From an uncultured Chryseobacterium sp. (GTDB taxonomy: Bacteria; Bacteroidota; Bacteroidia; UBA10329), in assembly GCA_964500205.1 (NCBI GenBank), contig CAZCNS010000003.1, positions 62,606 through 126,605 on the forward strand: a stretch of 64,000 nt of DNA, given 5' to 3'. Positions 16,840 through 29,620 of this stretch are shown one piece after another. The stretch's first letter is position 1; each line of letters begins with the position of its first letter. A program made the position numbers and the translations under genes. The notes beneath the pieces were generated by a model, which was not told the DNA's origin, did no database searches, and saw only the letters and a list, made by a program, of their open reading frames with translations.

Positions 16840-19800
16840 TCACTGGAATTTACCGATGACCACGGCTACGAGATTGCAGTACACGTAGTAGCCCGTGCCG
16901 GCTCCCACGTGCCAATAGCCCTGAAAGGTGACCGTGCCATCGGCAGTGGCCCTGAAGAGGCCGGTGCTGTGCCCCCCGCTCCAGTCGGTGCCATTGGAGG
17001 TAATCCAGTTTGATGGCAGCACCCAGGTTCCCGTTCCGCTGGAATTGAGTACGCGCATGTAGGTCGTGTTGACAATGGAGTTCGAGAGGTTGCACGCGCA
17101 GTCCACTTTCACCAGGTCCTCATTCTGCACTGTGATAGTGGTACTCAGGTCCGCACCCGTGAAGACCGAGGTGGTGGAAGTAGTGGAACCCACCACGCTC
17201 GACTCGTCCGCAGCGAAAGTGGCCACCCCTCTCACTTTGCCGTTCACATCAAGCTTTGCCGTGGGTGCGGTGATGCCGATGCCGACCCTGTCGTTGGTTG
17301 CATCCACTGACAAAGTGGAGCCGTCAACATTGAAGACGTCCACACCATTGCCTGTAAAGCTGAGCTTGTTGGTGGCAGAAAGCCCAGAAACGGTCGTGGC
17401 CTGAGTAAGCGCACCTCCCAGACGGACGGTGGCCGGGGCTGTTTCCGTCAGGCCGTTCTCTACCGTGATGATTCCTGTAGGGTCGCTCCATGTCGGTGCC
17501 CCCGCCCCGTTGCTGCGCAGCAACTGACCAGATGTGCCGGCTGCGGTAAAGGCGTAGGCCGACCCTGTGCCGTAAGCCAGCCCCCCGTTTGTAGGGGCTG
17601 CGTTTGAGTTTGTTCCCCCGTTGGCGATGGGCAGTATTCCTGTTACCTCTGCCGAGGCCAGACCAATGGCTCCAGCGGTGAACCCGGAGCCGTTGCCCTT
17701 GACCGGGCCGTTGAGCGTGGTGGTCACGGCAATGGTGCCACTTCCTGTCACCGGAGAGCTTCCGACCGAGAGGCCCGATGGCATTGTGAGGCCCACGGAG
17801 GTCACCGTGCCTACGTTAGCGGTGTTGATGTTCGATGCGGTCACCACTCCGGCTGGGCTTATGGTGAGTAGGCGGTCCTGACCAGAGCCGTTCAATGTGG
17901 GAAGGGTAAAGACGCCTGCTTGCGAAATGCGCATTCGTTCTATAAACGAGTTGCTTACCGACCCGGTCTGCAATATGATGTCTCCACCGCTGTTTGCAGC
18001 ACTGAGCTGATTGGTTCCGGAGCGCAGCAGCAGGTCTCCACCTGTCGCAGTGCCAGTGAGGTTGTAGCCGGCTCCGGCCTCCAACACCAGGTCGCCTCCG
18101 GAGCGCGCGCCACTGTCAGAGGAGGCATCGCCTGCCTTGACCGACAATGCGGAGCCGTCTGAGCTGCCCACGGCTTTCTGCAGGGTGATGTTCTTTGCAC
18201 CACCGCGCGAGAGCAGTACGTTGCCGCTCACATGAAGCCGTTCCAGAGGCGCAGACTCGCCAATGCCTACATTGGCCCCATTGCCCAGCACAACGCTGTT
18301 GCTTGCGCCCACCACAGCATTGGAACCTATGGCCGTTGCGTTGGTGAGGTTGTTCACTGAGGCATCGGCATTGATGCCCAGAAAAGTGTTTTGCGACCCG
18401 GTAGTGTTGAAATCGCCCGCGGCATCGCCCATGGCGATGTTGCCACTGCCTGTGGTGTTGTTGTACAGGGCCAGATAGCCCAAGGCCACATTGCTGTTGC
18501 CCGTGGTGTTGAATAGCATGGCATCCTTGCCTATGGCGGTGTTCCGGATGCCTTGTGTATTGTCGCGCAAGGCATCCTTGCCCATAGCAGTGTTGTCGAG
18601 TCCGGTGGTATTGCTATACATGGCACCAGACCCAAGCGCACTGTTGAAGTTGCCCGTGGTATTGTTGCGCAAGGCATCCCGGCCCATGGCGGTATTGTTG
18701 GATCCTGTGGTGTTGCTGACCAACGCCAGAACGCCTATGGCCGCATTGTTGAAGCCTGATGTGTTCACACGGAGTGCATCCTTTCCAATGGCGGTGTTCT
18801 GCCCGCCTGTGGTGTTGGTGCGCAGTGCGTCTCTGCCCACGGCCGTGTTGTCATTCCCGGTCGTATTGCTCACCAATGCCTGAAAGCCCAAGGCCGCGTT
18901 ACTGCTACCTGTGGTGTTGGACAGCATGGCATCCTTACCGATGGCGGTGTTCTGCCCGCCCGTGGTATTGTCGCGCAGTGCGTCCCTGCCCGCTGCCGTG
19001 TTGTCGCTTCCTGTTGTATTGCTTTGCAAGGCCCGCGATCCGAGTGCACTGTTGAATATGCCTGTGGTATTACTGCTCATGGCATTCCTACCCACGGCCG
19101 TATTGTCATTCCCGGTGGTGTTGTTGAGCAACGCCTGAAAGCCGTTGGCCACATTGCTCACACCTGTGGTGTTCGACAGGAGAGCATCCTTGCCGATGGC
19201 GGTGTTTTGAATGCCTGTGGTGTTGGCACGCAGTGCGTCCTTGCCCACGGCCGTGTTGTCGTTCCCGGTGGTATTGCTGCGCATGGCTTCCCGTCCCATG
19301 GCGGTGTTGTTGGCCCCGGTGGTGTTGGAAAGAAGGGTATTGTAGCCCACACCGGTGCTTGAGTTGGAGGTGTTCACGTTCCCCGCCTGATAGCCGAGAA
19401 AAACCTCGCCCGTGCTGGCCACCCTTCCTGCCTTCTGGTTGTTCACGCGGATGTTGAAGGGTATATTGTCTGTGGTACCTATGAAATGTGTGCCGTCCAC
19501 TGTGCTCGCATTTCCACTGAGCGACCAAGCTTCAGCAGTGACCACTGCAGTGGGGTCTGTCCATGTCATCCTTCCGTTGGCGTCAGAGACGGGGACGAAA
19601 CCAGTGGCCTGATTGCCGTCCACCATGCGGATGTTGCCTACCACATGCAGCCTGTCGCTGGGTGCCGAGATGCCGATGCCCACATTGCCGTTCTCATTAA
19701 TGGTCAATGCAGTGTTGGTGATCCCTGTCGCATAGTCATTGGACGTGCCGAGCATCAGCTTTGACCCGAAGCCATTGCTCTGTGCAGCGATCCGAGCGAT

Positions 19801-20400
19801 GGGGTTCGTTGCATCCGCGAAAATGAAGTCCATGGCTGCAAATCCTCCATTGGTGGTGGTCCCCTCCATGCTGAACATGCCTCTTGTGCTTCCTGTGAAG
19901 CTGCCGATCTGGTTTCCATTTACATGCAACCTCGACAATGGAACCGCAGCACCTATGGCCACATTCCCGGTGCGGTTGATGGCTCCGGTGGAATTGGCGG
20001 GGCCGTTCCAAGTGGGGTCAAGCTCTGTGAAGCTGGTGAGATACCCTACGGTGGCATGGTTCCCCCAACCGAATGCGGTGTTCCAGTTGGTGATGTCCGT
20101 GTTGGTTATCCCGAACGATGGGCTGGCGGAAAATATCGGGTCTGTCTCCACCGTAGAGGCAAATGAGGTCCAGCTGCTACCGTTCCATCCTTGGAACTGC
20201 CCCAAGGAGCCATTCCATCGGATGGTGCCCGCCCCGCCCGTGGGGGCACCTGCACCGATATCGGAGCTTAGGCGAAGTCGGCCAGCAATGTCGAGTTTCT
20301 CCTGCGGGGCAGGCACGCCAACACCCACGTTCTGAGCATGGGCCGCTGTTAAAGAAAGAAGCAATGTGGACAGTAGTACAGGTCTAAAGGACATCATCAT
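16840..20400 (-). CDS. Secreted giant protein (1186 aa) with a long run of YadA-like (Hep_Hag) 7-11-residue repeats and a tail-fibre-like C-terminal region
   Basis: Signal peptide MMMSFRPVLLSTLLLSLTAAHA. There are more than 40 repeats of the form NTAIGxxALxxNTTGxxNTAxG. The C-terminal has a G(I/V)LP(I/V)ANGGT motif (GILPIANGGTNS) common in phage tail-fibre and tail-fibre-like proteins. Confidence 0.85.
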   Translation of the reverse strand: MMMSFRPVLLSTLLLSLTAAHAQNVGVGVPAPQEKLDIAGRLRLSSDIGAGAPTGGAGTIRWNGSLGQFQGWNGSSWTSFASTVETDPIFSASPSFGITNTDITNWNTAFGWGNHATVGYLTSFTELDPTWNGPANSTGAINRTGNVAIGAAVPLSRLHVNGNQIGSFTGSTRGMFSMEGTTTNGGFAAMDFIFADATNPIARIAAQSNGFGSKLMLGTSNDYATGITNTALTINENGNVGIGISAPSDRLHVVGNIRMVDGNQATGFVPVSDANGRMTWTDPTAVVTAEAWSLSGNASTVDGTHFIGTTDNIPFNIRVNNQKAGRVASTGEVFLGYQAGNVNTSNSSTGVGYNTLLSNTTGANNTAMGREAMRSNTTGNDNTAVGKDALRANTTGIQNTAIGKDALLSNTTGVSNVANGFQALLNNTTGNDNTAVGRNAMSSNTTGIFNSALGSRALQSNTTGSDNTAAGRDALRDNTTGGQNTAIGKDAMLSNTTGSSNAALGFQALVSNTTGNDNTAVGRDALRTNTTGGQNTAIGKDALRVNTSGFNNAAIGVLALVSNTTGSNNTAMGRDALRNNTTGNFNSALGSGAMYSNTTGLDNTAMGKDALRDNTQGIRNTAIGKDAMLFNTTGNSNVALGYLALYNNTTGSGNIAMGDAAGDFNTTGSQNTFLGINADASVNNLTNATAIGSNAVVGASNSVVLGNGANVGIGESAPLERLHVSGNVLLSRGGAKNITLQKAVGSSDGSALSVKAGDASSDSGARSGGDLVLEAGAGYNLTGTATGGDLLLRSGTNQLSAANSGGDIILQTGSVSNSFIERMRISQAGVFTLPTLNGSGQDRLLTISPAGVVTASNINTANVGTVTSVGLTMPSGLSVGSSPVTGSGTIAVTTTLNGPVKGNGSGFTAGAIGLASAEVTGILPIANGGTNSNAAPTNGGLAYGTGSAYAFTAAGTSGQLLRSNGAGAPTWSDPTGIITVENGLTETAPATVRLGGALTQATTVSGLSATNKLSFTGNGVDVFNVDGSTLSVDATNDRVGIGITAPTAKLDVNGKVRGVATFAADESSVVGSTTSTTSVFTGADLSTTITVQNEDLVKVDCACNLSNSIVNTTYMRVLNSSGTGTWVLPSNWITSNGTDWSGGHSTGLFRATADGTVTFQGYWHVGAGTGYYVYCNLVAVVIGKFQ

Positions 20401-21339: not shown

Positions 21340-21560
21340 ATCTCCGACCTGCTTGTCCGTCCGTCCGCCTCAGGCGGACGGACAGGTGGGCGGGCGGGAT
21401 TTTTTTGATTGTTGAGCGAAGCGAAATCCCGCCCAAGCGGGAAGCGAAGCGAAATCCCGCGACTGCGGGAAGATTGCTGATTGCTAATTGCTGATTGACG
21501 AGGGAGGGATTGACAATTAAAAGTTACCAATTACCAATTACCAATTAACAATTGGGGGTG
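21340..21560. repeat. Third locus of the dispersed composite repeat, with a GC hairpin and T-run
   Basis: Hairpin CCGTCCGTCCGCC-TCAG-GCGGACGGACAGG, then GGGCGGGCGGGATTTTTTT, then AGCGAAGCGAAATCCCGC…GCGAAATCCCGCGACTGCGGGA, then (GATTGCT)x3-4 and (CCAATTA)x3. Confidence 0.6.
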
Positions 21561-21665
21561 GAGGGGAGGTGGAAGAGGGGAGAGGATGATTTTTAATGTT
21601 GTTCTGTTTGTTTTGCAACCGACATAAAAGGGAAGTTAGTAAGTTCACCCCCACGAAACTGACGT

Positions 21666-23174
21666 ATGAACTTCGACCAGACCTTCAAGAACATTGATGA
21701 CGTGCTCCGCAGGGAGACCGACTCCGAACTCGACTACATAGAGCAGACCTCGTGGATACTCTTCCTTCGCTACTTGGACGAACTGGAGCAGGAGCGCGCA
21801 GATGAGGCCGAGCTGCGGGGCAACGAATACCGTTTCCTCCTGGCCGAGGAATACCGCTGGGGCGCATGGGCCATGCCCAAGGATGCCAAAGGGGCGTACG
21901 ATTTCAAGTCCGCCCTGACGGGGCCCGACCTCATCGAGTTTGTCAATGGCAAGCTGCTGCCCTACCTGCGCACCTTCAAAGAGGCGCACAGCGACAACCC
22001 CCGCACCCTCGAATACAAGGTGGGCGAGATATTCGGAGAGCTGAAGAACAAGCTGGGCAGCGGCTACAACCTGCGCGAGATACTGGAGGCCATAGACACC
22101 CTGCCCCTCAAGAGCAGCAAGGACCGCCACGAGCTCAGCTTCCTCTACGAGAGCCGCATCCGCAACATGGGCAACGCGGGCCGCAACGGAGGCCAGTACT
22201 ACACCCCCCGCCCCCTCGTGCGCGCCATGATTCAGGTGACCGACCCCCGCATAGGCGAGACCGTCTATGATGGGGCCGCAGGCTCTGCGGGCTTCCTCTG
22301 CGAGGCATACGAGTACATGGCCCCGCAGACCGAGCGCCACCCCACGCTATCAAGCACCGAGGCCCTGCGCGTGCTGCAAGAGGAGACCCTCTATGGCAAG
22401 GAGGTGAAGAACCTCGCCTACATCATCGGCATCATGAACATGATACTGCATGGCGTGGAGGCCCCCAACCTCATCCATATCAACACGCTGGCCGCACACG
22501 ACAGTCAGGTGCAGGAGCGCGACCGCTATGATGTCATCCTCGCCAATCCGCCCTTTGGCAGCAAGGAGCGGCCCGAGGTGCAGCAGGCATTCGCCATCAA
22601 GACCAGCGAGACGGCCTTCCTCTTCCTTGAGCACTTCATCCGCTATCTGAAGACGGGAGGCCGCGCGGCCATCGTCATCAAGAACACCTTTCTGAGTAAC
22701 ACCGACAATGCGGCCGTGAGCCTGCGCAAGCACCTGCTGGAGACCTGCAACCTCCACACCGTGCTCGACATGCCGCAGGGCACCTTCCTCGGGGCGGGCG
22801 TCAAGACCGTCATCCTCTTCTTCACCAAGGGCGAGCCTACCCGCAACATCTGGTACTACCAGCTGAACCCCGGCCGCAACATGGGCAAGACCAACCCCCT
22901 CAACGACAGCGACCTGGCCGAGTTCATCGAACTCCAGAAGACCCGCCCAGAGACCGAGTGCAGTTGGAAAGTTGGGGTCACTTCGAGTGACGCTGACGAA
23001 GGAGGCGTTGTATCGAGAAGCCCCAACGCCACCAACGGCTTCGACCTCTCCGTAAAGAACCCCAACACCCCCGAAGAGGCACCCCTGCGCAGCCCACAGG
23101 AGATACTGGACGAGATGACCGCCTTGGACGAAGAGACCAAGGAACTGTTGGACGGGATAAGGGAGTTGCTATGA
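21666..23174 (+). CDS. hsdM: Type I restriction-modification N6-adenine DNA methyltransferase subunit
   Basis: HsdM N-terminal domain and catalytic motif IV NPPF (…VILANPPFGSKERPE…). It overlaps the specificity subunit by ATGA. Confidence 0.95.
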   Translation: MNFDQTFKNIDDVLRRETDSELDYIEQTSWILFLRYLDELEQERADEAELRGNEYRFLLAEEYRWGAWAMPKDAKGAYDFKSALTGPDLIEFVNGKLLPYLRTFKEAHSDNPRTLEYKVGEIFGELKNKLGSGYNLREILEAIDTLPLKSSKDRHELSFLYESRIRNMGNAGRNGGQYYTPRPLVRAMIQVTDPRIGETVYDGAAGSAGFLCEAYEYMAPQTERHPTLSSTEALRVLQEETLYGKEVKNLAYIIGIMNMILHGVEAPNLIHINTLAAHDSQVQERDRYDVILANPPFGSKERPEVQQAFAIKTSETAFLFLEHFIRYLKTGGRAAIVIKNTFLSNTDNAAVSLRKHLLETCNLHTVLDMPQGTFLGAGVKTVILFFTKGEPTRNIWYYQLNPGRNMGKTNPLNDSDLAEFIELQKTRPETECSWKVGVTSSDADEGGVVSRSPNATNGFDLSVKNPNTPEEAPLRSPQEILDEMTALDEETKELLDGIRELL

Positions 23175-24322
23175 GTACTAACAAATGGACTCCATTCCGA
23201 AATGTCGGAAATGTTCAGTCGGGAGCTGGATTTCCAATTGTTTATCAAGGCCTAACGGAAGGTGAATACCCCTTCTACAAGGTTGGAGACATGAATTCAG
23301 AAGGCAACGAGATATTCATGTCTCAAGCCAACCATTACATATCTGATGAAGTTCGCAGGGAACTTGGAGCTAAAGTAATTCCACCAGACAGTATAATCTT
23401 CCCCAAAGTTGGCGGGGCCATATTGACTAACAAAAAAAGGATTACAACTCTTCCATGCTGTATTGACAACAACTTGATGTCAATCTGGGTCGACCCAGCA
23501 GCATATTCCAAAAAGTACTTCTACTATTTCTTCAATTCGATTGATTTATTTGAGTTGTCTAATAAAGCTGGGTTGCCATCAATTACGCAAACAGCTCTTT
23601 ACGAACTGAAAGTTCCCATCCCACCCCTCCCCGAACAGGAGCGCATCGTTGCCAAGTTGGATGCCGCCTTTGCGGCCATCGATAAGGCCAAGGCCAATGT
23701 GGAGCGCAACCTGCACAATGCCAAGGAGCTTTTTCAGAGCAAGCTCAATGAGGTGTTTGAAAATTTGGAATCACAATATGAAAGGACTCCTATAGCTTCT
23801 GTTTGCAAAGAGATATTTGCTGGAGGTGATGCCCCACGTGAAAACTTCTCCGAAGCCAGAACAGATAAATTTCACATTCCAATAATTGCCAATGCCGTTA
23901 AAGACCATGGTCTTTACGGATATACAGATTTGGTGAGAGTTTCGGAGCCATCAATTACCATAGCAGCACGCGGAAGTGGTACTGGACATACTGAAATCAG
24001 GTTGGAGCCATTTTTCCCAATTGTCAGGTTAATTGTCCTGATTCCAAAGAGGGAGATGATTGACCTTTCCTTTTTCTGTTACTCAATCAAAAATTTGGAG
24101 ATTTTGAGAAGCGGTTCTGCAATACCGCAGTTGACTGTGCCCATGATTAAAGGTTACTCGCTTGCTGTGCCACCTTTGGAAACTCAAGAAGTGTTAGTTG
24201 AAATGCTTAACTCGTTGGAGGGCAGTTTGCAGTCCCTTGAAACCTATTATACCCGCAAACTAACAGAATTGGAAACCTTGAAGAAGTCGGTTTTGGAGCG
24301 GGCTTTTAGGGGGGAGATTTGA
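23171..24322 (+). CDS. hsdS: Type I R-M specificity subunit (two target-recognition domains)
   Basis: AT-rich variable TRDs separated by the conserved central helix (…LPPLPEQERIVAKLDAAFAAIDKAKANVERNLHNAKELFQSKLNEVF…), and the conserved distal helix …LETQEVLVEMLNSLEGSLQSLETYYTRKLTELETLKKSVLERAFRGEI*. Confidence 0.9.
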   Translation: MSTNKWTPFRNVGNVQSGAGFPIVYQGLTEGEYPFYKVGDMNSEGNEIFMSQANHYISDEVRRELGAKVIPPDSIIFPKVGGAILTNKKRITTLPCCIDNNLMSIWVDPAAYSKKYFYYFFNSIDLFELSNKAGLPSITQTALYELKVPIPPLPEQERIVAKLDAAFAAIDKAKANVERNLHNAKELFQSKLNEVFENLESQYERTPIASVCKEIFAGGDAPRENFSEARTDKFHIPIIANAVKDHGLYGYTDLVRVSEPSITIAARGSGTGHTEIRLEPFFPIVRLIVLIPKREMIDLSFFCYSIKNLEILRSGSAIPQLTVPMIKGYSLAVPPLETQEVLVEMLNSLEGSLQSLETYYTRKLTELETLKKSVLERAFRGEI

Positions 24323-24359
24323 AAAGAGAAAATGACATAGTGTTCATTTGCAGCCTCTT

Positions 24360-24463
24360 TGTGGGACACGTAGGACATAGCGTGGGACGTGGCGGAGTGG
24401 GAGCCTCCATCGTGCAGTTCCACGGAGCGTCCCAAGCGTCCCACAGCAAATAGCCCACAGCCT
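24360..24463. mobile_element. MITE/PATE-like about 100-bp element, copy A (terminal inverted repeats TGTGGGAC…GTCCCACA)
   Basis: GTGGGACACGTAGGACATAGCGTGGGACGTGGCGGAGTGG … CACGGAGCGTCCCAAGCGTCCCACAGC. Arms are mutually complementary (CGTGGGACG vs CGTCCCACG). Near-identical copies lie at 24543-24640 and 26324-26433. Confidence 0.5.
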
Positions 24464-24524
24464 CAAACTAACAGAATTGGAAACCTTGAAGTAGTCGGTT
24501 TTGGAGCGGGCTTTTAGGGGGGAG
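24464..24524 (+). pseudogene. Orphan duplicate of the hsdS 3' end (…KLTELETLK*SVLERAFRGEL), copy 2 of 3
   Basis: A roughly 60-bp direct repeat of 24262-24322 with an internal stop (TAG). A third copy at 24653-24716 runs into the KAP NTPase reading frame. Confidence 0.6.
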
Positions 24525-24542
24525 CTATGAAAATAAAAATGG

Positions 24543-24640
24543 AGGACACGTAGGGCATAGCGTGGGAAGTGGCGGAGTGGTGGTCACCATCGTGCAGTCC
24601 CACGGAACGTCCCAAGCGTCCCACAGCATGAAGCCCACAG
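24543..24640. mobile_element. MITE/PATE-like element, copy B
   Basis: GGACACGTAGGGCATAGCGTGGGAAGTGGCGGAGTGG…CACGGAACGTCCCAAGCGTCCCACAGC. Confidence 0.5.
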
Positions 24641-24736
24641 CAAACCCACTACACCCGCAAACTAACAGAACTTGAAACCTTGAAGAAGTCGGTTTTGGAG
24701 CGGGCTTGTAGGGGGGGATATGAAACAGGAAGCGAT

Positions 24737-26116
24737 ATGAAAGGAAGACACAATGACTTGATAATCGACCTCAATGAACCTTTCAAAGAGTGCAAACTCA
24801 ATCGAAAGCGGAATGCGGAGATTCTAACCGAGGTGGTGCAGAGGTACAAGGATGGTTTTGTCCTTGCGATAAACAACCCTTGGGGTGCGGGTAAGACCAC
24901 CTTCGTGAAGATGTGGCAGCAGCACTTGGAGAATGAACATTTCCGTACCGTCTATTTTAACGCTTGGGAGAACGACCTTGGCAATGCCATTTTCCCTGCC
25001 CTGCTCTCTGAATTGGAAGGAATTGACCGCGCACATAGAGATGGCGAGAATCAACAGAATCCAAGGTTTGCTGACGTATTAGACAAGGCCGCCCCGATTG
25101 CAAAATCTTTAATGCCCGCAGTGGCAAAGATTCTGTTTGACAGATTTGCAGGCAAGGGTGCTGCATCGGAACTAGCAGAGGCAATTGCAGCGGGTGGTGC
25201 AGAGGTACTGGCAGAAGGCATCAAAGACTACAGGGCACAAAAGCAAGGACTTGGTGAGTTCAAAAAATCGCTAACCGAGTTTGTGGAGACCTACACTTCT
25301 TATGGCAGGCCCATCATCTTCATTATAGACGAGCTTGACCGCTGCCGTCCCGACTATGCGGTCTCCGTGCTAGAACACATCAAGCACCTTTTCTCTATAC
25401 GCAGAGTAGTTTTCGTGCTTTCCATAGACAAGGTGCAATTGGGTCACGCCATTTGTGGGGTGTATGGCAGTGACAACTTCGATTCCAATGAGTACTTGAG
25501 AAGGTTTATTGATTTGGAGTACAATCTGCCCGTTCCGAACTACACTGAAATCACGAAATACTTTTTCAACTACTTCGGATTTGAAGATGTTGCATTGCTA
25601 AAAAACAAACCAAATGCATGGTTTTCTGATGAGGAACTGTTTGACTTTATGGGGCAACGCTTCAGACATCTGAATTGGAATATTCGAAGAATAGAGAAAC
25701 TGATGGCACGCTGCAGAGTTACCATGAGTCTTGTTGCACCAGATGAATTTCATCTCATGCCGTTCTACTTGTACCTATCTTTCCTTTACGAATTAGATGG
25801 TGAATTCGCTGGCAAGCTGACATCCGGTAAACTCACTATTACAGAAGTCAACTCCAAATTGAAGAGTCCTGAACTGCTGTTTGGGGCGAGTTTTGAAGCA
25901 CCATTTTGGCAGAAGTGCTTCGCATTTATTTTATTATCTATATCCGATAATTTTACTGACATCTCGAAACTAAATCCAATAAATGCTATCAAACAACAAC
26001 CGCTATCTGCGTTTTCTTCAGTTGTACATGCGGGATCATATGGTCAGCTATCGCTTCCCGGAATAGTTGAAATAGGCAGGAGGTTAAGACATTCCTATAG
26101 TTTTGAAGCAGCTTAA
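24737..26116 (+). CDS. KAP-family P-loop NTPase inserted between hsdS and hsdR (ORF in track begins at TTG 24680 inside the hsdS-end repeat; ATG at 24737 preferred)
   Basis: Walker A NNPWGAGKTTFVKMW, the KAP-typical YFNAWEND motif, and Walker B IIFIIDELDRCRPDY. AT-rich relative to hsdM and hsdR. Confidence 0.85.
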   Translation: MKGRHNDLIIDLNEPFKECKLNRKRNAEILTEVVQRYKDGFVLAINNPWGAGKTTFVKMWQQHLENEHFRTVYFNAWENDLGNAIFPALLSELEGIDRAHRDGENQQNPRFADVLDKAAPIAKSLMPAVAKILFDRFAGKGAASELAEAIAAGGAEVLAEGIKDYRAQKQGLGEFKKSLTEFVETYTSYGRPIIFIIDELDRCRPDYAVSVLEHIKHLFSIRRVVFVLSIDKVQLGHAICGVYGSDNFDSNEYLRRFIDLEYNLPVPNYTEITKYFFNYFGFEDVALLKNKPNAWFSDEELFDFMGQRFRHLNWNIRRIEKLMARCRVTMSLVAPDEFHLMPFYLYLSFLYELDGEFAGKLTSGKLTITEVNSKLKSPELLFGASFEAPFWQKCFAFILLSISDNFTDISKLNPINAIKQQPLSAFSSVVHAGSYGQLSLPGIVEIGRRLRHSYSFEAA

Positions 26117-26118
26117 TC

Positions 26119-26178
26119 AATGAACGAATCCGAAACCCGCGCCCATTTCATCGCCCCCGCCCTGATAGCCAAGGGATA
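26119..26178 (+). pseudogene. Truncated, diverged copy of the hsdR 5' end (MNESETRAHFIAPALIAKG*)
   Basis: 20 codons, about 80% identical to the true hsdR start at 27077 (VNESNTRAHYIDPALIAKGW…), with TAG where hsdR has TGG. Confidence 0.5.
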
Positions 26179-26323
26179 GGGGCTAATAACAGCCATTGAA
26201 CCGAGCGGTTGAAAACCCCTTTCAGGAGGGCAGCATGTTCAGGTTCCGCTGTTCCACGGCACGGCCCATAAACCCCACAGAAAACCCCACCCGTAGAAAC
26301 CATGGCGCACTCACCGTCTTTTT

Positions 26324-26433
26324 TGTGGGACACGTAGGACATGACGTGGGACGTGGCGGAGTGGCAAGCACCTTCGGCCGTCCTGCGGAGCGTCCCATGC
26401 AGTCCCACAAGTCCCACAGCACAAAGCCCACAG
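26324..26433. mobile_element. MITE/PATE-like element, copy C
   Basis: TGTGGGACACGTAGGACATGACGTGGGACGTGGCGGAGTGG…GGAGCGTCCCATGCAGTCCCACAAGTCCCACAGC. Confidence 0.5.
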
Positions 26434-26462
26434 AACATCCAACCAACCTAACATATTGACAA

Positions 26463-27047
26463 TTGCACTACATTAGCCCCATGGCAACGGAGAATCCAGG
26501 CGGTTTTATCCCAAAGAATGGGGGTTATAGAAACCTCTATGCCTTCCAGAAGGCCGAGATCATTTATGATGGCACGGTCTATTTCACCAAACGGTTCTTC
26601 GGGAAATACGACCGCACTGTAGATCAGATGGTGCAGGCTGCCCGCAGCGGCAAGCAGAACATAGGCGAGGGCAGCGTGGTATCGGCCACCTCCAAACAGT
26701 TGGAGATCAACCTGACCAACGTGGCCCGCGCCAGCTTGGAAGAACTCAAGATGGACTACGAGGATTTCCTGCGCACCAACAAGCTGCCCATCTGGGACAA
26801 GAACCACCGCCTTGCCCTGCGGGTGCGCGAATTGAACCGTACGCCCAATGCCGATTACAGTACTTTTCAGAAGGCCATAGAGCACGAGAGCCCTGAGATC
26901 TGTGCCAACACGCTGCTCACCCTCATCAACATCGCCATTTACCTGCTCAAGAACCAGTTGGCCACCCTCGAAAAGGAGTTCCTTGAAGAAGGGGGTATCC
27001 GCGAACGAATGACCCGCGCCCGCATTGCCAAACGCAAGGGCGGGTAG
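26463..27047 (+). CDS. Four-helix-bundle protein (23S rRNA intervening-sequence protein / Avd-like family) with a C-terminal extension; alternative start MATENPGG at 26481
   Basis: YRNLYAFQKAEIIYDGTVYFTKRF…DRTVDQMVQAARSGKQNIGEGS…KQLEINLTNVARASLEEL matches the family hallmark (…W/FQKA…L…IY…T…FP…E…L…Q…RAA.SI..NIAEG…F…A.GSL.EL). It sits between a MITE-like copy and hsdR. Confidence 0.65.
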   Translation: MHYISPMATENPGGFIPKNGGYRNLYAFQKAEIIYDGTVYFTKRFFGKYDRTVDQMVQAARSGKQNIGEGSVVSATSKQLEINLTNVARASLEELKMDYEDFLRTNKLPIWDKNHRLALRVRELNRTPNADYSTFQKAIEHESPEICANTLLTLINIAIYLLKNQLATLEKEFLEEGGIRERMTRARIAKRKGG

Positions 27048-27076
27048 CTGCCAGCAAATGAAACCGCCCCGTTGAC

Positions 27077-29620
27077 GTGAACGAATCCAACACCCGCGCG
27101 CATTACATAGACCCTGCCCTTATAGCCAAGGGATGGGGTTTCAATGCGCCCATGAACGAAGGACGCATACGCACGGAGCATTTCATCACCAATGGCCGCA
27201 TATTGGGCCAGAGCGTAGGCAGCAAGCGATCGAAGGATGGGCTGATACACGGTGAGCGGCTCAAGGCCGACTATGTACTGCAATACCGCAACCGCAACAT
27301 TGGTATTATAGAGGCCAAGGCTGATACGCAGGACTTCACCGAAGGCGTGGGGCAGGCCAAGGAGTACGCCACCCGCCTACAGGTGCGCTTTGCCTTTAGC
27401 ACCAATGGCAAACGCATCTATTGCATCGACATGCAGGAGGGCACCGAGAGCGAGGTGCGCGAATACCCCACACCCGATGAGCTGTGGGCCATGACGTTTG
27501 ACGCAGATTCGGAGTGTCACACTAAGCGGAGTCGAAGTGCAAACGAGGAATCTGGGGCTTCCAACGGACTCCATCCCGAATCTTCGGGACTCAGAATGAC
27601 ACCCCCCGACCACGGCATCAACTGGATGGAACGGTTCAGCGCAGTGCCCTTCGAGGACCGTGGCGGCACATGGCAGCCGCGCTACTATCAGGAGAACGCC
27701 ATCACCAACGCCCTCGATGCCATGGCCGAGGGCCGTGACCGCATCCTGCTCACCCTCGCCACCGGCACAGGCAAGACGGCCATCGCCTTTCAGATATGCT
27801 GGAAGCTGTATCAAAGCCGTTGGAACCTGAGGCGCGATGGCAGCGGCCTGCCGCGCATCCTTTTCCTGGCCGACCGCAACGTGCTGGCCGATCAGGCATT
27901 CAATGCGTTTAACCTCTCTTTTGAGGAGAACGCACTGGTGCGCATCACCCCCGAGGAGATACGCAAGGCAGGCAAGGTGCCGACCAGCGGAAGCCTGTTC
28001 TTCACCATCTTCCAGACCTTCATGACAGGCGGCAATACCGATGCAGGCGAGACCGAGGACATGGAAGCGGGCAAGGCCCATTTCTGGGGCTACCCGAAGG
28101 ACTTCTTCGACCTTATCATCATTGACGAGTGCCACCGTGCAGGGGCGAAGGACAACAGCTCATGGCGGGCCATCATGGAGTATTTCAAGCCTGCGGTGCA
28201 GATAGGTCTCACCGCCACGCCCAAGCGCGATGTGAATGGCGACACCTACCGCTATTTCGGTGACCCCGTGTATGTCTATTCGCTCAAAGAAGGCATCAAC
28301 GATGGTTTCCTCACGCCTTTCCGCTACAAGGAGATGAGCACCACGGGGGATGAGTACACCTACACCGAGGGCGACATCGTGATGGAAGGAGAGGTGGAAT
28401 ATGGCCGCACTTACACGCAGGAGGAACAGAACCGTGTAATCATCCTGGAGGATGTAGAGCGTTTTCGTGTGCAGAAGCTGCTCGAAAGCATAGACCAGCG
28501 GCACAAGACCATCGTGTTTTGCAATGACCAGCTGCACGCCCTCGCGGTGCGCAACCTCATCAATCAGCTCTCAACCAGTCGCAACCCGCACTACTGCCAC
28601 CGTGTCACGGCAGACGATGGCAAGCAGGGCGAACAGTACCTCAAGCACTTTCAGGACAACCAGAGCAGCATCCCCACAATCCTTACCACCTCGCAGAAAC
28701 TGAGCACGGGTGTGGACGCACCAGAGGTGCGCAACATCGTGCTGATGCGCGTGGTGCGCAGCATGGTGGAGTTCAAGCAGATCATAGGGCGCGGCACACG
28801 CCTTCATGATGGCAAGAGCTACTTCACGGTCTATGATTTCTATTGGCGGTTACACACCCACTTCGAGGATCCCGAATGGGACGGCCCGCCCGAAGAGCCT
28901 GAACCCCCAGTGGAACGGCCGTTGACCGACCCTTGTCTGAACTGTGGTCAGAGGCGCTGCATCTGCAACCAGCCTCCGCCAGAGCTGTGCGAACTCTGCG
29001 CCAAACATCCCTGCGAGTGCGAAGGCGAACCACGCCCCAAGAAGATACGCATCAAGATGGCCGATGGCAGCGTGCGTGATCTGCAGGGCATGACCCGCAC
29101 CAGATACTACGGCAAGAATGGACAGCTTGTGACGGGCGATGCCTTCATTCAGGAACTCTTTGGCGACCTGCCTTCCTTCTTCTCCGATGAGGAGAAACTA
29201 AGGGAGATATGGAGCACGCCCGACACCCGCAGGAAACTGCTGGAAGAGATGAAGGAGAAGGGCTACAGCGAGGAACAGCTCAAGGAATTGCAAGAGCTGG
29301 TGCATGGCCGCGACAGCGACCTGTATGATGTGCTCTCCTACGTGGCCTATCACCGCGACCTTGTGCCGCGCTCCGACCGCGCAGACCGCGCCAAGGTGCA
29401 TTTCGCCACCTACGACCCCAAGCAGCAGGAGTTCCTCAACTTCGTGCTGGAGCAGTACGTGCGTTCAGGCGTCCACGAACTGGACGACCAGAAACTGCCC
29501 CAGCTCCTCGACCTCAAATACAAGAGCGTGGCCGATGCCAAGGCGCAGCTTGGCTCTCCTAACACCATTCGAGACACCTTCATCGGCTTTCAGAAATGGC
29601 TGTATGGGGAGGTGGGGTAG
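27077..29620 (+). CDS. hsdR: Type I restriction enzyme R subunit (GTG start), with a Cys-rich C-terminal insert
   Basis: N-terminal NESNTRAHYIDPAL. SF2 helicase motifs LTLATGTGKT, IIIDECHRAG, GLTATP, QIIGRGTRL. C-terminal DUF3387-like region. CxxC x4 cluster CLNCGQRRCICNQ…CELCAKHPCEC. Confidence 0.95.
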   Translation: MNESNTRAHYIDPALIAKGWGFNAPMNEGRIRTEHFITNGRILGQSVGSKRSKDGLIHGERLKADYVLQYRNRNIGIIEAKADTQDFTEGVGQAKEYATRLQVRFAFSTNGKRIYCIDMQEGTESEVREYPTPDELWAMTFDADSECHTKRSRSANEESGASNGLHPESSGLRMTPPDHGINWMERFSAVPFEDRGGTWQPRYYQENAITNALDAMAEGRDRILLTLATGTGKTAIAFQICWKLYQSRWNLRRDGSGLPRILFLADRNVLADQAFNAFNLSFEENALVRITPEEIRKAGKVPTSGSLFFTIFQTFMTGGNTDAGETEDMEAGKAHFWGYPKDFFDLIIIDECHRAGAKDNSSWRAIMEYFKPAVQIGLTATPKRDVNGDTYRYFGDPVYVYSLKEGINDGFLTPFRYKEMSTTGDEYTYTEGDIVMEGEVEYGRTYTQEEQNRVIILEDVERFRVQKLLESIDQRHKTIVFCNDQLHALAVRNLINQLSTSRNPHYCHRVTADDGKQGEQYLKHFQDNQSSIPTILTTSQKLSTGVDAPEVRNIVLMRVVRSMVEFKQIIGRGTRLHDGKSYFTVYDFYWRLHTHFEDPEWDGPPEEPEPPVERPLTDPCLNCGQRRCICNQPPPELCELCAKHPCECEGEPRPKKIRIKMADGSVRDLQGMTRTRYYGKNGQLVTGDAFIQELFGDLPSFFSDEEKLREIWSTPDTRRKLLEEMKEKGYSEEQLKELQELVHGRDSDLYDVLSYVAYHRDLVPRSDRADRAKVHFATYDPKQQEFLNFVLEQYVRSGVHELDDQKLPQLLDLKYKSVADAKAQLGSPNTIRDTFIGFQKWLYGEVG

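What the first reader, a model, noticed from the sequence alone, without database searches (positions are those of the whole stretch)
21340..29620. Type I R-M operon used as an insertion scaffold: hsdM-hsdS-[KAP NTPase]-[hsdR' remnant]-[four-helix-bundle gene]-hsdR
Two extra genes are wedged between hsdS and hsdR: a KAP P-loop NTPase (24737-26116) and a four-helix-bundle gene (26463-27047). Each is AT-rich relative to hsdM and hsdR and bounded by about 100-bp inverted-repeat MITE-like elements and by duplicated fragments of the neighbouring hsd genes. The layout resembles the classical prr locus (hsdM-hsdS-prrC-hsdR), where an R-M complex keeps a latent abortive-infection NTPase/nuclease in check. 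Such operon-internal cargo is where new anti-phage modules are commonly found.
Basis: partly seen in the sequence, partly recalled or inferred. Interest (0 to 1): 0.75.

Follow-up and report, generated by a model that had tools for sequence, protein, structure and literature searches.

The report
Cargo slot inside a restriction operon
A bacterial DNA-restriction operon carries two extra genes between its specificity and nuclease genes; close relatives carry different genes at the same spot, so this is a real example of the already described habit of candidate defence genes lodging inside restriction operons.

Summary
The genes and duplicated fragments are real. The operon is an intact EcoAI-type (type IB) hsdM-hsdS-hsdR system in a Bacteroidota chromosome. 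Two genes sit between hsdS and hsdR. One is a soluble KAP P-loop NTPase matching PADLOC candidate family PDC-S20. The other is a "four-helix-bundle suffix" protein (4HB).

Three copies of the hsdS 3' tail and two of the hsdR 5' head flank them. Close relatives of the same operon carry other cargo in this slot. In 13 of 80 KAP-homologue loci, KAP lies between hsdS and hsdR, often with an ATGA stop/start overlap. Other cargo there includes DarT plus a Macro-domain protein, PDC-S02 and Schlafen-like genes. The "scaffold/hotspot" reading holds, but it is a known phenomenon and the KAP family is already catalogued.

Three claims fail:
- The 4HB gene is not AT-rich.
- The roughly 100-nt palindromes are not MITEs. 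They are arrays of GGAC/GTCC cores spaced 9 nt apart, and similar arrays precede 4HB-suffix genes in many unrelated loci.
- KAP is not PrrC-like. Most homologues stand alone.

KAP function is inferred only: an autonomous ATP-driven defence switch. The function of 4HB and its upstream array is unknown.

The parts
21666..23174 (+). hsdM, type I methyltransferase subunit (502 aa)
   Evidence: Pfam N6_Mtase 7.5e-54 and HsdM_N; PADLOC MTase_I 1.2e-144
23171..24322 (+). hsdS, specificity subunit (383 aa). It overlaps the hsdM stop by 4 nt. Its last ~70 nt form tail copy T1 (24253-24322).
   Evidence: Pfam Methylase_S 3.8e-28, two stretches. GC is 0.434. The recognition domains differ from L081, while the central region and the tail are conserved.
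24323..24461 (+). 37-40-nt spacer plus palindrome E1 (24363-24461). GGAC cores at 24365, 24374 and 24386; GTCC cores at 24429 and 24438.
   Evidence: (RNA fold -49.7 kcal/mol, z -2.2). The spacer and left arm resemble the 4HB-linked E of L081; the right arm resembles E2.
24461..24539 (+). T2, a pseudo-copy of the hsdS 3' tail. It encodes SLKLTELETLK*SVLERAFRGEL*, with an internal stop.
   Evidence: 92% identical to T1; translation
24540..24645 (+). Palindrome E2, a solo copy with no 4HB gene after it
   Evidence: 89% identical to E1. T2-E2-T3 is 90% identical to T1-E-T2 of L081.
24644..24733 (+). T3, the third hsdS-tail copy. It abuts the KAP start and is followed by a short GATATGAAA duplication.
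   Evidence: (repeat families D2, D9)
24737..26116 (+). KAP-family P-loop NTPase (459 aa). Walker A GAGKT at residue 50; Walker B IIFIIDE at residue 193. No transmembrane-like segment.
   Evidence: Pfam KAP_NTPase 3.3e-36; PADLOC PDC-S20 7.4e-128, PifA 1e-22, QatA 2e-15. AlphaFold model pLDDT 75.5, resembling ORC/Cdc6 and RdrA rings. Hydropathy and motifs.
26120..26181 (+). H', a remnant of an hsdR 5' end (MNESETRAHFIAPALIAKG*), 3 nt after the KAP stop, as at intact KAP-hsdR junctions elsewhere
   Evidence: 85% identical to 27078-27138; junction comparison; translation
26182..26322 (+). Segment x: a decayed right-arm-like piece of an E (26248-26284) plus a spacer-like stretch
   Evidence: (repeat families D3, D8). 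The 87-aa ORF 26196-26459 has no family hit.
26323..26440 (+). Palindrome E3, directly upstream of the 4HB gene. GGAC cores at 26329, 26338 and 26350; GTCC cores at 26380, 26392, 26402 and 26411.
   Evidence: (-54.5 kcal/mol, z -2.1). Same class as the arrays upstream of 4HB genes in L087-L166.
26481..27047 (+). Four-helix-bundle protein with suffix domain (188 aa), of the 23S-rRNA-IVS / Avd-like superfamily
   Evidence: NCBIfam TIGR04258 3.3e-22 (78 bits, cut-off 40) and TIGR02436 26.6 bits (cut-off 24). Pfam PF05635 scores 27.5 bits, below its cut-off of 33.8. The model is all-helical; best PDB hit is 2rld, probability 0.95.
27077..29620 (+). hsdR, EcoAI/FtnUII-family (type IB) restriction subunit (847 aa, GTG start), full length
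   Evidence: NCBIfam NF046051 3e-222, 740 bits (cut-off 550), model positions 1-767 of 768; Pfam ResIII, EcoEI_R_C, HSDR_N_2

Best explanation
This is an intact EcoAI-type (type IB) restriction-modification operon in a Bacteroidota chromosome. Its hsdS-hsdR gap acts as a recombination-driven cargo slot and holds two unrelated modules.

(1) A soluble KAP-family P-loop NTPase of PADLOC candidate family PDC-S20. Its downstream junction is a slice of a compact hsdS-KAP-hsdR operon: a 61-nt hsdR head follows 3 nt after the KAP stop. Its upstream neighbour is an hsdS-tail copy (T3) that the KAP-less relative L081 also has, so T3 was probably resident.

(2) A highly conserved four-helix-bundle-suffix gene together with its own upstream array of GGAC/GTCC cores spaced 9 nt apart (E). 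Two further E copies lack a gene.

Inferred, not shown:
- Cargo enters and is swapped by recombination anchored in the conserved hsdS tail, the hsdR head and the E copies. Each event can leave behind a truncated tail or head.
- KAP is most likely an autonomous, oligomeric, ATP-driven sensor or switch with a defence role, co-transcribed with the R-M genes. It is probably not a PrrC-type partner held latent by the R-M complex.
- The 4HB protein probably binds its own E array at the DNA level. It is probably a passenger rather than part of restriction.
For: Anatomy.

Slot turnover:
- L081 (hsdM 92% nucleotide identity) has T-E-T-E-T-[125-aa gene]-T-E-4HB-hsdR.
- L168/L170 have T-geneA-T'-geneB-T''-E-E-E-4HB-hsdR.
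- L167 has hsdS-[487-aa protein]-hsdR with no repeats.

Recurrent embedding:
- 13 of 80 KAP loci have hsdM-hsdS-KAP-hsdR with the same Hsd family.
- The hsdS stop overlaps the KAP ATG (ATGA) in at least 7 of them, and the KAP stop lies 0-4 nt from the hsdR start in 5.
- L019 has a 28-nt hsdR-head remnant just before KAP.
- Other cargo in the slot: DarT plus a Macro-domain protein, PDC-S02, Schlafen AlbA_2.

KAP:
- PDC-S20 at E 7e-128; intact Walker A and B, no transmembrane segment; model resembles RdrA and ORC rings.
- It is foreign in composition.
- Free and embedded copies are interspersed on the tree, and neighbours of free copies are mostly housekeeping genes.

E and 4HB:
- An E-like array lies upstream of 30 of 68 4HB genes, against 6 of 1465 control windows and 5 sites in 1.13 Mb of loci lacking 4HB.
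- Core spacing is exactly 9 nt in 123 of 136 intervals.
- G:T versus A:C mismatches show no strand bias.
- E1 is a left/right hybrid of two E types.

Published concept: bioRxiv 10.1101/2024.01.29.577857.
Against: - No experiment shows that PDC-S20, or this KAP, defends against phage. No paper in the library mentions PDC-S20, and its row was not found in the held supplements.
- KAP has no recognisable effector domain, so how it would stop a phage is unknown.
- The order of the recombination events cannot be reconstructed. The H' remnant is GC-rich while KAP is AT-rich, which a single low-GC donor does not explain.
- The T-E tandem could also have arisen by slippage or unequal crossing-over.
- Binding of 4HB to E is pure inference. 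Only about a quarter of 4HB genes sit next to type I genes, so 4HB may have nothing to do with restriction.
- The strict E detector misses more than half of the loci.
- The tree is neighbour-joining without support values.
Confidence: 0.6

Rival explanations
1. PrrC-like guard. The R-M complex binds KAP and holds it inactive. When a phage anti-restriction protein disables the enzyme, KAP is released and aborts the infection.
For: KAP occupies the same position as prrC, between hsdS and hsdR. ATGA start/stop overlaps and abutting junctions in several genera imply co-translation with Hsd subunits. All 13 embedded copies sit in the same EcoAI-type Hsd family.
Against: KAP matches no ABC-ATPase or nuclease family and no PrrC model. 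About 84% of homologues have no adjacent hsd gene. Embedded copies are scattered among free ones on the tree. In this window the tight coupling is broken by two palindromes upstream and by the 4HB module downstream.
Confidence: 0.15
2. Passengers without a defence role. KAP and/or the 4HB module are selfish or neutral genes that persist in the operon only because it is a permissive, frequently exchanged site.
For: 4HB-suffix genes lie mostly beside housekeeping genes and none was found in phage records. They have no PADLOC hit. Relatives are reported inside cas loci and 23S rRNA genes (PMC3936711), which is typical of interloper genes. The small cargo genes of relatives have no family hit.
Against: KAP relatives include defence proteins: PADLOC matches PifA and QatA, and the model resembles RdrA. 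Co-cargo in the same slot includes a DarT plus Macro-domain pair; DarTG is, from general knowledge, an established anti-phage system. The 4HB family is under very strong constraint, 70-77% identity over more than 8000 proteins, which argues for a selected function of some kind.
Confidence: 0.2
3. The ~100-nt palindromes are MITEs that transposed into the operon and brought or mobilised the cargo.
For: They are imperfect inverted repeats of about 100 nt, present in three copies.
Against: All copies in 64 kb lie inside this operon. No short target-site duplications are present; the flanking repeats are 60-80-nt pieces of hsd genes. The metagenome scan found no match, and the four viral-contig matches to a shorter pattern were unrelated sequences. 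The same kind of array precedes 4HB genes in unrelated loci, with divergent sequence but fixed 9-nt architecture.
Confidence: 0.04
4. The hsdS-tail copies belong to a programmed system for switching hsdS specificity (a phase-variable type I system).
For: Repeated hsdS segments are the substrate of known switching systems (papers listed). The recognition domains differ between the window and L081.
Against: The copies are direct, not inverted. They hold only the last ~24 codons and no recognition domain, and T2 has an internal stop. None of the ORFs examined in or flanking the operon matches a recombinase family.
Confidence: 0.03

Closest known systems
Genes embedded in type I R-M operons: the prr locus (hsdM-hsdS-prrC-hsdR) and the 'guilt-by-embedding' phage defence candidates of PADLOC (bioRxiv 10.1101/2024.01.29.577857)
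   Same: An extra gene lies between hsdS and hsdR and is co-oriented with them. The KAP protein matches candidate family PDC-S20. The slot holds different cargo in relatives.
   Different: KAP is unrelated to PrrC; it has no hit to an ABC-ATPase or anticodon-nuclease family. No functional link to R-M has been shown. The nested hsdS-tail and hsdR-head remnants did not come up in the parts of that preprint I read or term-searched.
KAP-type or related NTPases of defence systems: PifA (F plasmid), QatA (Qat), RdrA (RADAR)
   Same: P-loop NTPase core. PADLOC PifA 1e-22 and QatA 2e-15. The model overlaps RdrA heptamer chains (Foldseek E 5e-5, TM up to 0.51).
   Different: It is much shorter (459 aa, against model or chain lengths of about 590-850). 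No QatBCD or RdrB partner genes are adjacent. The C-terminal ~85 aa match nothing.
23S-rRNA-IVS / 'S23' four-helix-bundle proteins and DGR Avd (PF05635, TIGR02436)
   Same: Helical-bundle fold; NIxEG-type motif (QNIGEGS here); best PDB hit is 2rld. Family members are reported as interlopers inside cas loci (PMC3936711).
   Different: It carries the TIGR04258 suffix domain. None of the six operon ORFs matches a reverse-transcriptase family, and no template/variable repeat pair was seen. It is not inside an rRNA gene. It is preceded by a GGAC/GTCC array with 9-nt spacing, for which I found no Rfam family or paper.
REP/BIME-type intergenic palindromes and integron attC sites
   Same: Imperfect palindromes inside an operon, sitting next to exchangeable gene cassettes.
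   Different: E is tied to one gene family (4HB). It is built from 9-nt repeats. No RAYT transposase or integron integrase was found among the ORFs examined in or beside the operon. The cassette boundaries are pieces of the host hsd genes rather than a dedicated recombination site.

Membership tests
Type I R-M, EcoAI/type IB family | HsdR matching the EcoAI/FtnUII equivalog above its cut-off, with hsdM and hsdS in the same operon | tested here: met
   NF046051 scores 740 bits (cut-off 550) over model positions 1-767 of 768. N6_Mtase, HsdM_N and Methylase_S are present.
KAP family P-loop NTPase (PF07693) | Pfam KAP_NTPase above the gathering score, with Walker A and Walker B motifs | tested here: met
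   125.5 bits (cut-off 20). GAGKT at residue 50 and IIFIIDE at residue 193.
KAP family P-loop NTPase (PF07693) | Transmembrane helices inserted in the NTPase domain. From general knowledge, this is typical of many members but not all. | tested here: not met
   The highest 19-residue Kyte-Doolittle mean is 1.53, and it falls in a core strand. The insert at residues 109-186 is modelled as low-confidence amphipathic helices.
PADLOC PDC-S20 (phage defence candidate, single gene) | Match to the PDC-S20 HMMs | tested here: met
   PDLC04959 at E 7.4e-128, residues 1-377 against model positions 1-372 of 464. The C-terminal ~85 aa are not covered.
PADLOC PDC-S20 (phage defence candidate, single gene) | Demonstrated anti-phage activity | not testable with these tools
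   No paper in the library mentions PDC-S20.
PrrC-type anticodon nuclease | N-terminal ABC-type ATPase and C-terminal anticodon nuclease domain | tested here: not met
   Pfam, NCBIfam and PADLOC give KAP, PifA and QatA hits only, and no PrrC or ABC hit. The only ABC matches are P-loop-only hits to solved structures at E 0.02.
PrrC-type anticodon nuclease | Gene located between hsdS and hsdR | tested here: met
Qat / RADAR systems | Partner genes (QatB/C/D, or the RdrB deaminase) next to the NTPase | tested here: not met
   The neighbours are hsdS, 4HB and hsdR only.
Four-helix-bundle suffix protein (TIGR04258 + TIGR02436) | Both NCBIfam models above their cut-offs | tested here: met
   78.1 bits (cut-off 40) and 26.6 bits (cut-off 24). 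Pfam PF05635 scores 27.5 bits, below its cut-off of 33.8.
DGR accessory protein Avd | Adjacent reverse transcriptase and a template/variable repeat pair | tested here: not met
   None of the six operon ORFs or of the flanking ORFs examined matches a reverse-transcriptase family.
MITE | Terminal inverted repeats, short target-site duplications and dispersed copies | tested here: not met
   Copies occur only inside the operon. They are flanked by 60-80-nt hsd fragments, not short duplications. No true copies were found in the collection scans. The rest of the source genome was not available.
Phase-variable type I system (hsdS shuffling) | Extra hsdS recognition-domain copies, usually inverted, plus a recombinase | tested here: not met
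   The tail copies are direct, 70-90 nt long, and lack recognition domains. None of the ORFs examined in or flanking the operon matches a recombinase family.

The most novel reading that the evidence does not exclude
The four-helix-bundle-suffix gene and its upstream array form an undescribed two-part module. The array has 3-4 GGAC cores at exactly 9-nt spacing, followed by 3-4 inverted GTCC cores. The protein would bind its own array. The module would colonise operons across Bacteroidota, including about a quarter of cases in type I R-M operons. Its palindromes, together with the conserved hsdS tail and hsdR head, would act as portable homology. That would turn the hsdS-hsdR gap into an integrase-free cassette array in which candidate defence genes such as KAP are captured and swapped.
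Probability: 0.3. Interest if true: 0.6.

Novelty: new member of a known kind. Interest (0 to 1): 0.45.

Why it matters
The locus is a clean natural example of cargo turnover inside a type I restriction operon. Four closely related operon backbones carry four different cargo sets, and the leftover gene ends show where the joins were made. That gives a concrete, testable picture of how candidate defence genes come to sit inside R-M operons. It also nominates an untested KAP NTPase (PDC-S20) and several small unknown genes for phage assays.

Separately, the fixed 9-nt array in front of an unusually conserved four-helix-bundle family is a simple handle for working out what these proteins do. Relatives of this family also turn up in cas loci, DGRs and rRNA genes.

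Tried and rejected
- Scan of metagenome contigs for a 24-nt degenerate E pattern: 0 hits.
- Scan of viral contigs with a shorter pattern: 4 hits, all unrelated sequences.
- Rfam at gathering and at relaxed thresholds: nothing for E.
- PDB sequence search: nothing for 4HB, and only P-loop noise for KAP.
- Literature: no paper mentions PDC-S20, and its row was not found in the held supplements of the PADLOC preprint. No paper links PF05635 proteins to type I R-M or describes the array.
- My own error: the first tblastn used a 4HB query translated one base out of frame. It was corrected, and conclusions rest on the corrected runs.
- Two E detectors were too crude: exact GGAC/GTCC counts (21 of 68 against 9 of 957 controls) and k-mer counts. 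They were replaced by the periodic-core test.
- The idea that embedded KAPs form a specialised clade was rejected by the tree.
- A single low-GC donor for KAP plus its flanks was dropped, because T3 is shared with L081 and H' is GC-rich.
- A sigma-70 promoter and terminator scan gave nothing above shuffles and is not suited to Bacteroidota.
- The exact-sequence look-up of the KAP protein's contig failed.

Full report
**What is there**

The plus strand between 21666 and 29620 carries six real features in one orientation.
- hsdM: 502 aa; N6_Mtase 7.5e-54.
- hsdS: 383 aa; two Methylase_S stretches; overlaps hsdM by 4 nt.
- A KAP-family P-loop NTPase: Pfam 3.3e-36.
- A 61-nt remnant of an hsdR 5' end.
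- A four-helix-bundle protein with suffix domain (4HB): TIGR04258 78 bits against a cut-off of 40; TIGR02436 26.6 bits against a cut-off of 24.
- A full-length EcoAI/FtnUII-family hsdR: NF046051 740 bits against a cut-off of 550, covering model positions 1-767 of 768.

Alignment with homologues puts the KAP start at ATG 24737 and the 4HB start at ATG 26481. The 87-aa ORF at 26196-26459 matches nothing and runs across a palindrome, so I treat it as spurious.

The rest of the window encodes type IX secretion cargo and housekeeping genes. This is therefore a Bacteroidota chromosome and not an obvious defence island.

**Repeats**

The last ~70-80 nt of hsdS occur three times: T1 inside hsdS, T2 at 92% identity, and T3 at 82%. 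T2 has an internal stop, and T3 abuts the KAP start.

The first 61 nt of hsdR occur twice. The upstream copy, H', starts 3 nt after the KAP stop and ends in a stop codon.

Three ~100-nt imperfect palindromes are present. E1 and E2 lie between the tail copies, and E3 lies upstream of 4HB. Their 19-nt core is found three times in the 64 kb against 0.05 expected by chance.

A Logan contig from another read set is identical to window 24678-27892. Analogous tail and palindrome arrays occur in independent JGI assemblies. Assembly error is therefore unlikely.

**Composition**

KAP is clearly foreign: GC 0.444 and GC3 0.47. hsdM is 0.608/0.85 and hsdR is 0.581/0.75. The 4HB gene, at 0.552/0.746, matches hsdR.

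**Is the slot a hotspot?**

Yes. Operons with nearly the same backbone carry different cargo in the hsdS-hsdR gap.
- L081 (hsdM 92% nucleotide identity): T-E-T-E-T-[125-aa unknown gene]-T-E-4HB-hsdR, with no KAP.
- L168/L170 (4HB 92% identical): T-geneA-T'-geneB-T''-E-E-E-4HB-hsdR.
- L167 (HsdM in the same 90% cluster): hsdS-[487-aa unknown protein]-hsdR, with no repeats.

The hsdS recognition domains also differ between the window and L081, while the central region and the tail are conserved.

**KAP elsewhere**

Among 80 genome loci encoding KAP homologues, 13 have hsdM-hsdS-KAP-hsdR with the same Hsd family; HsdR there is 46-58% identical.
- In at least seven of these, the hsdS stop overlaps the KAP ATG as ATGA.
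- In five, the KAP stop lies 0-4 nt from the hsdR start.

In those genomes KAP is a compact operon member. The window's KAP-H' junction has exactly that form.

Some of these operons hold further cargo in the same gap:
- DarT plus a Macro-domain protein (L040).
- PD-(D/E)XK proteins, including PADLOC PDC-S02 (L019).
- Schlafen AlbA_2 proteins (L003, L026).
- A DUF1643 protein (L025).

L019 also has a 28-nt hsdR-head remnant just before KAP.

The other ~84% of KAP homologues have no hsd neighbour and mostly sit among housekeeping genes. On a neighbour-joining tree, embedded and free copies are interspersed. This points to repeated moves in and out of the slot rather than a lineage specialised for R-M.

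**What KAP is**

- It matches PADLOC candidate family PDC-S20 at E 7.4e-128 over its first 377 residues. It matches PifA and QatA more weakly.
- Walker A and Walker B motifs are intact and there is no transmembrane-like segment.
- The AlphaFold model (pLDDT 75.5) resembles ORC/Cdc6 proteins and the ring-forming RdrA of RADAR.
- No effector domain is recognisable, and no partner genes of Qat or RADAR are adjacent.

A 2024 preprint derived 145 PADLOC 'phage defence candidates' from genes embedded in BREX, DISARM and type I R-M systems (bioRxiv 10.1101/2024.01.29.577857). The name PDC-S20 fits that set, but I could not find its row in the held supplements, and no paper mentions it.

Both the concept and the family are therefore already catalogued. 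The function is untested.

**What the palindromes are**

They are not MITEs. In 80 metagenome loci encoding 4HB-suffix proteins, most genes are preceded within about 10-60 nt of the start codon by an array of GGAC-type cores followed by inverted GTCC cores.

I applied a strict test: at least 3 GAC at 8-13-nt spacing, then at least 2 GTC.
- 30 of 68 upstream regions pass.
- 6 of 1465 control windows pass.
- 5 weak sites pass in 1.13 Mb of loci without 4HB.

By eye the true share is higher. Core spacing is exactly 9 nt in 123 of 136 intervals. In the 64-kb window the test lights up only at the E regions.

Cores pair between the two arms in 84% of positions and spacers in 47%. G:T and A:C mismatches are equally common. 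A few arrays are direct repeats only. This fits a DNA-level element better than an RNA hairpin, but it does not settle the question. Rfam has no matching family.

**What 4HB is**

The family is very conserved: 70-77% identity over more than 8000 hits. Its best PDB fold hit is the 'S23 family' protein 2rld, and that match is weak.

Only about a quarter of its genes neighbour type I genes, and they do so at various junctions. The rest sit beside housekeeping genes. None was found in phage records. Relatives were reported as interlopers inside cas loci (PMC3936711) and resemble DGR Avd (PMC10053308).

I infer that E is the cis partner of the 4HB gene, possibly its own binding site. I also infer that the module is a passenger in this operon.

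**How the mosaic arose (inference)**

Every cargo unit is bordered by a piece of hsdS tail, hsdR head or E. Four observations bear on the mechanism.
- T3 with its upstream E flank is shared by the window and L081, yet it is followed by different cargo.
- E1 is a hybrid of two E types.
- The 3' flank of E and the start of T share GCAAAC-type microhomology (my reading of the sequences).
- The KAP start shows a short GATATGAAA duplication.

The simplest reading is repeated recombination with other type I operons. One end would be anchored in conserved hsd sequence or in E. The other end would be joined at microhomology, which leaves truncated tails and heads behind. Slippage or unequal crossing-over between T-E units could add copies. 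The order of events cannot be resolved.

**Comparison and verdict**

The layout is like prr, but KAP is not a PrrC relative, and dependence on R-M is neither shown nor favoured. The locus is a new example of a known kind: candidate defence cargo embedded in a type I operon. It has unusually legible recombination scars and one side observation that may be new, the 9-nt array in front of 4HB genes.

I put the interest at 0.45.

Noticed in passing
L087-L166 (upstream of each 4HB gene); window 24363-24461, 24540-24645, 26323-26440: Four-helix-bundle-suffix genes are preceded by arrays of GGAC cores, then inverted GTCC cores. Core spacing is exactly 9 nt in 123 of 136 intervals. No Rfam family or paper was found for it.
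   Followed up: partly
L167 4721-7705: In a close relative (NCBI GCA_030153465.1), HsdR is 994 aa and carries an in-frame GIY-YIG nuclease domain (aa 347-418) inside the helicase region. A PADLOC PDC-M29 A/B gene pair lies just downstream of hsdR.
   Followed up: no
window 21415-21470: Two tandem 28-nt units (AGCGAAGCGAAATCCCGC..GCGGGA) lie upstream of hsdM. Each holds a small GC hairpin that looks terminator-like on the minus strand.
   Followed up: no
window 16840-20400 (-): A 1186-aa ORF directly upstream of the operon has no Pfam or PADLOC match.
   Followed up: no
L081 9375-9752; L168 8702-9079 and 9149-9547; L167 3261-4724: The alternative cargo genes in the same slot of close relatives (125, 125, 132 and 487 aa) have no significant Pfam or PADLOC match. 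By position they are further untested candidates.
   Followed up: partly
window 26481-27047 and proteins P0122-P0253: The 4HB-suffix family is unusually conserved for a small accessory protein: 70-77% identity across the listed hits and 92 invariant columns in a 22-sequence alignment.
   Followed up: partly
window 37545-58098 (-): A cluster of large type IX secretion cargo proteins (CHU_C, Por_Secre_tail, SprB repeats, PKD) with a PorP/SprF gene. It places the window in Bacteroidota.
   Followed up: no
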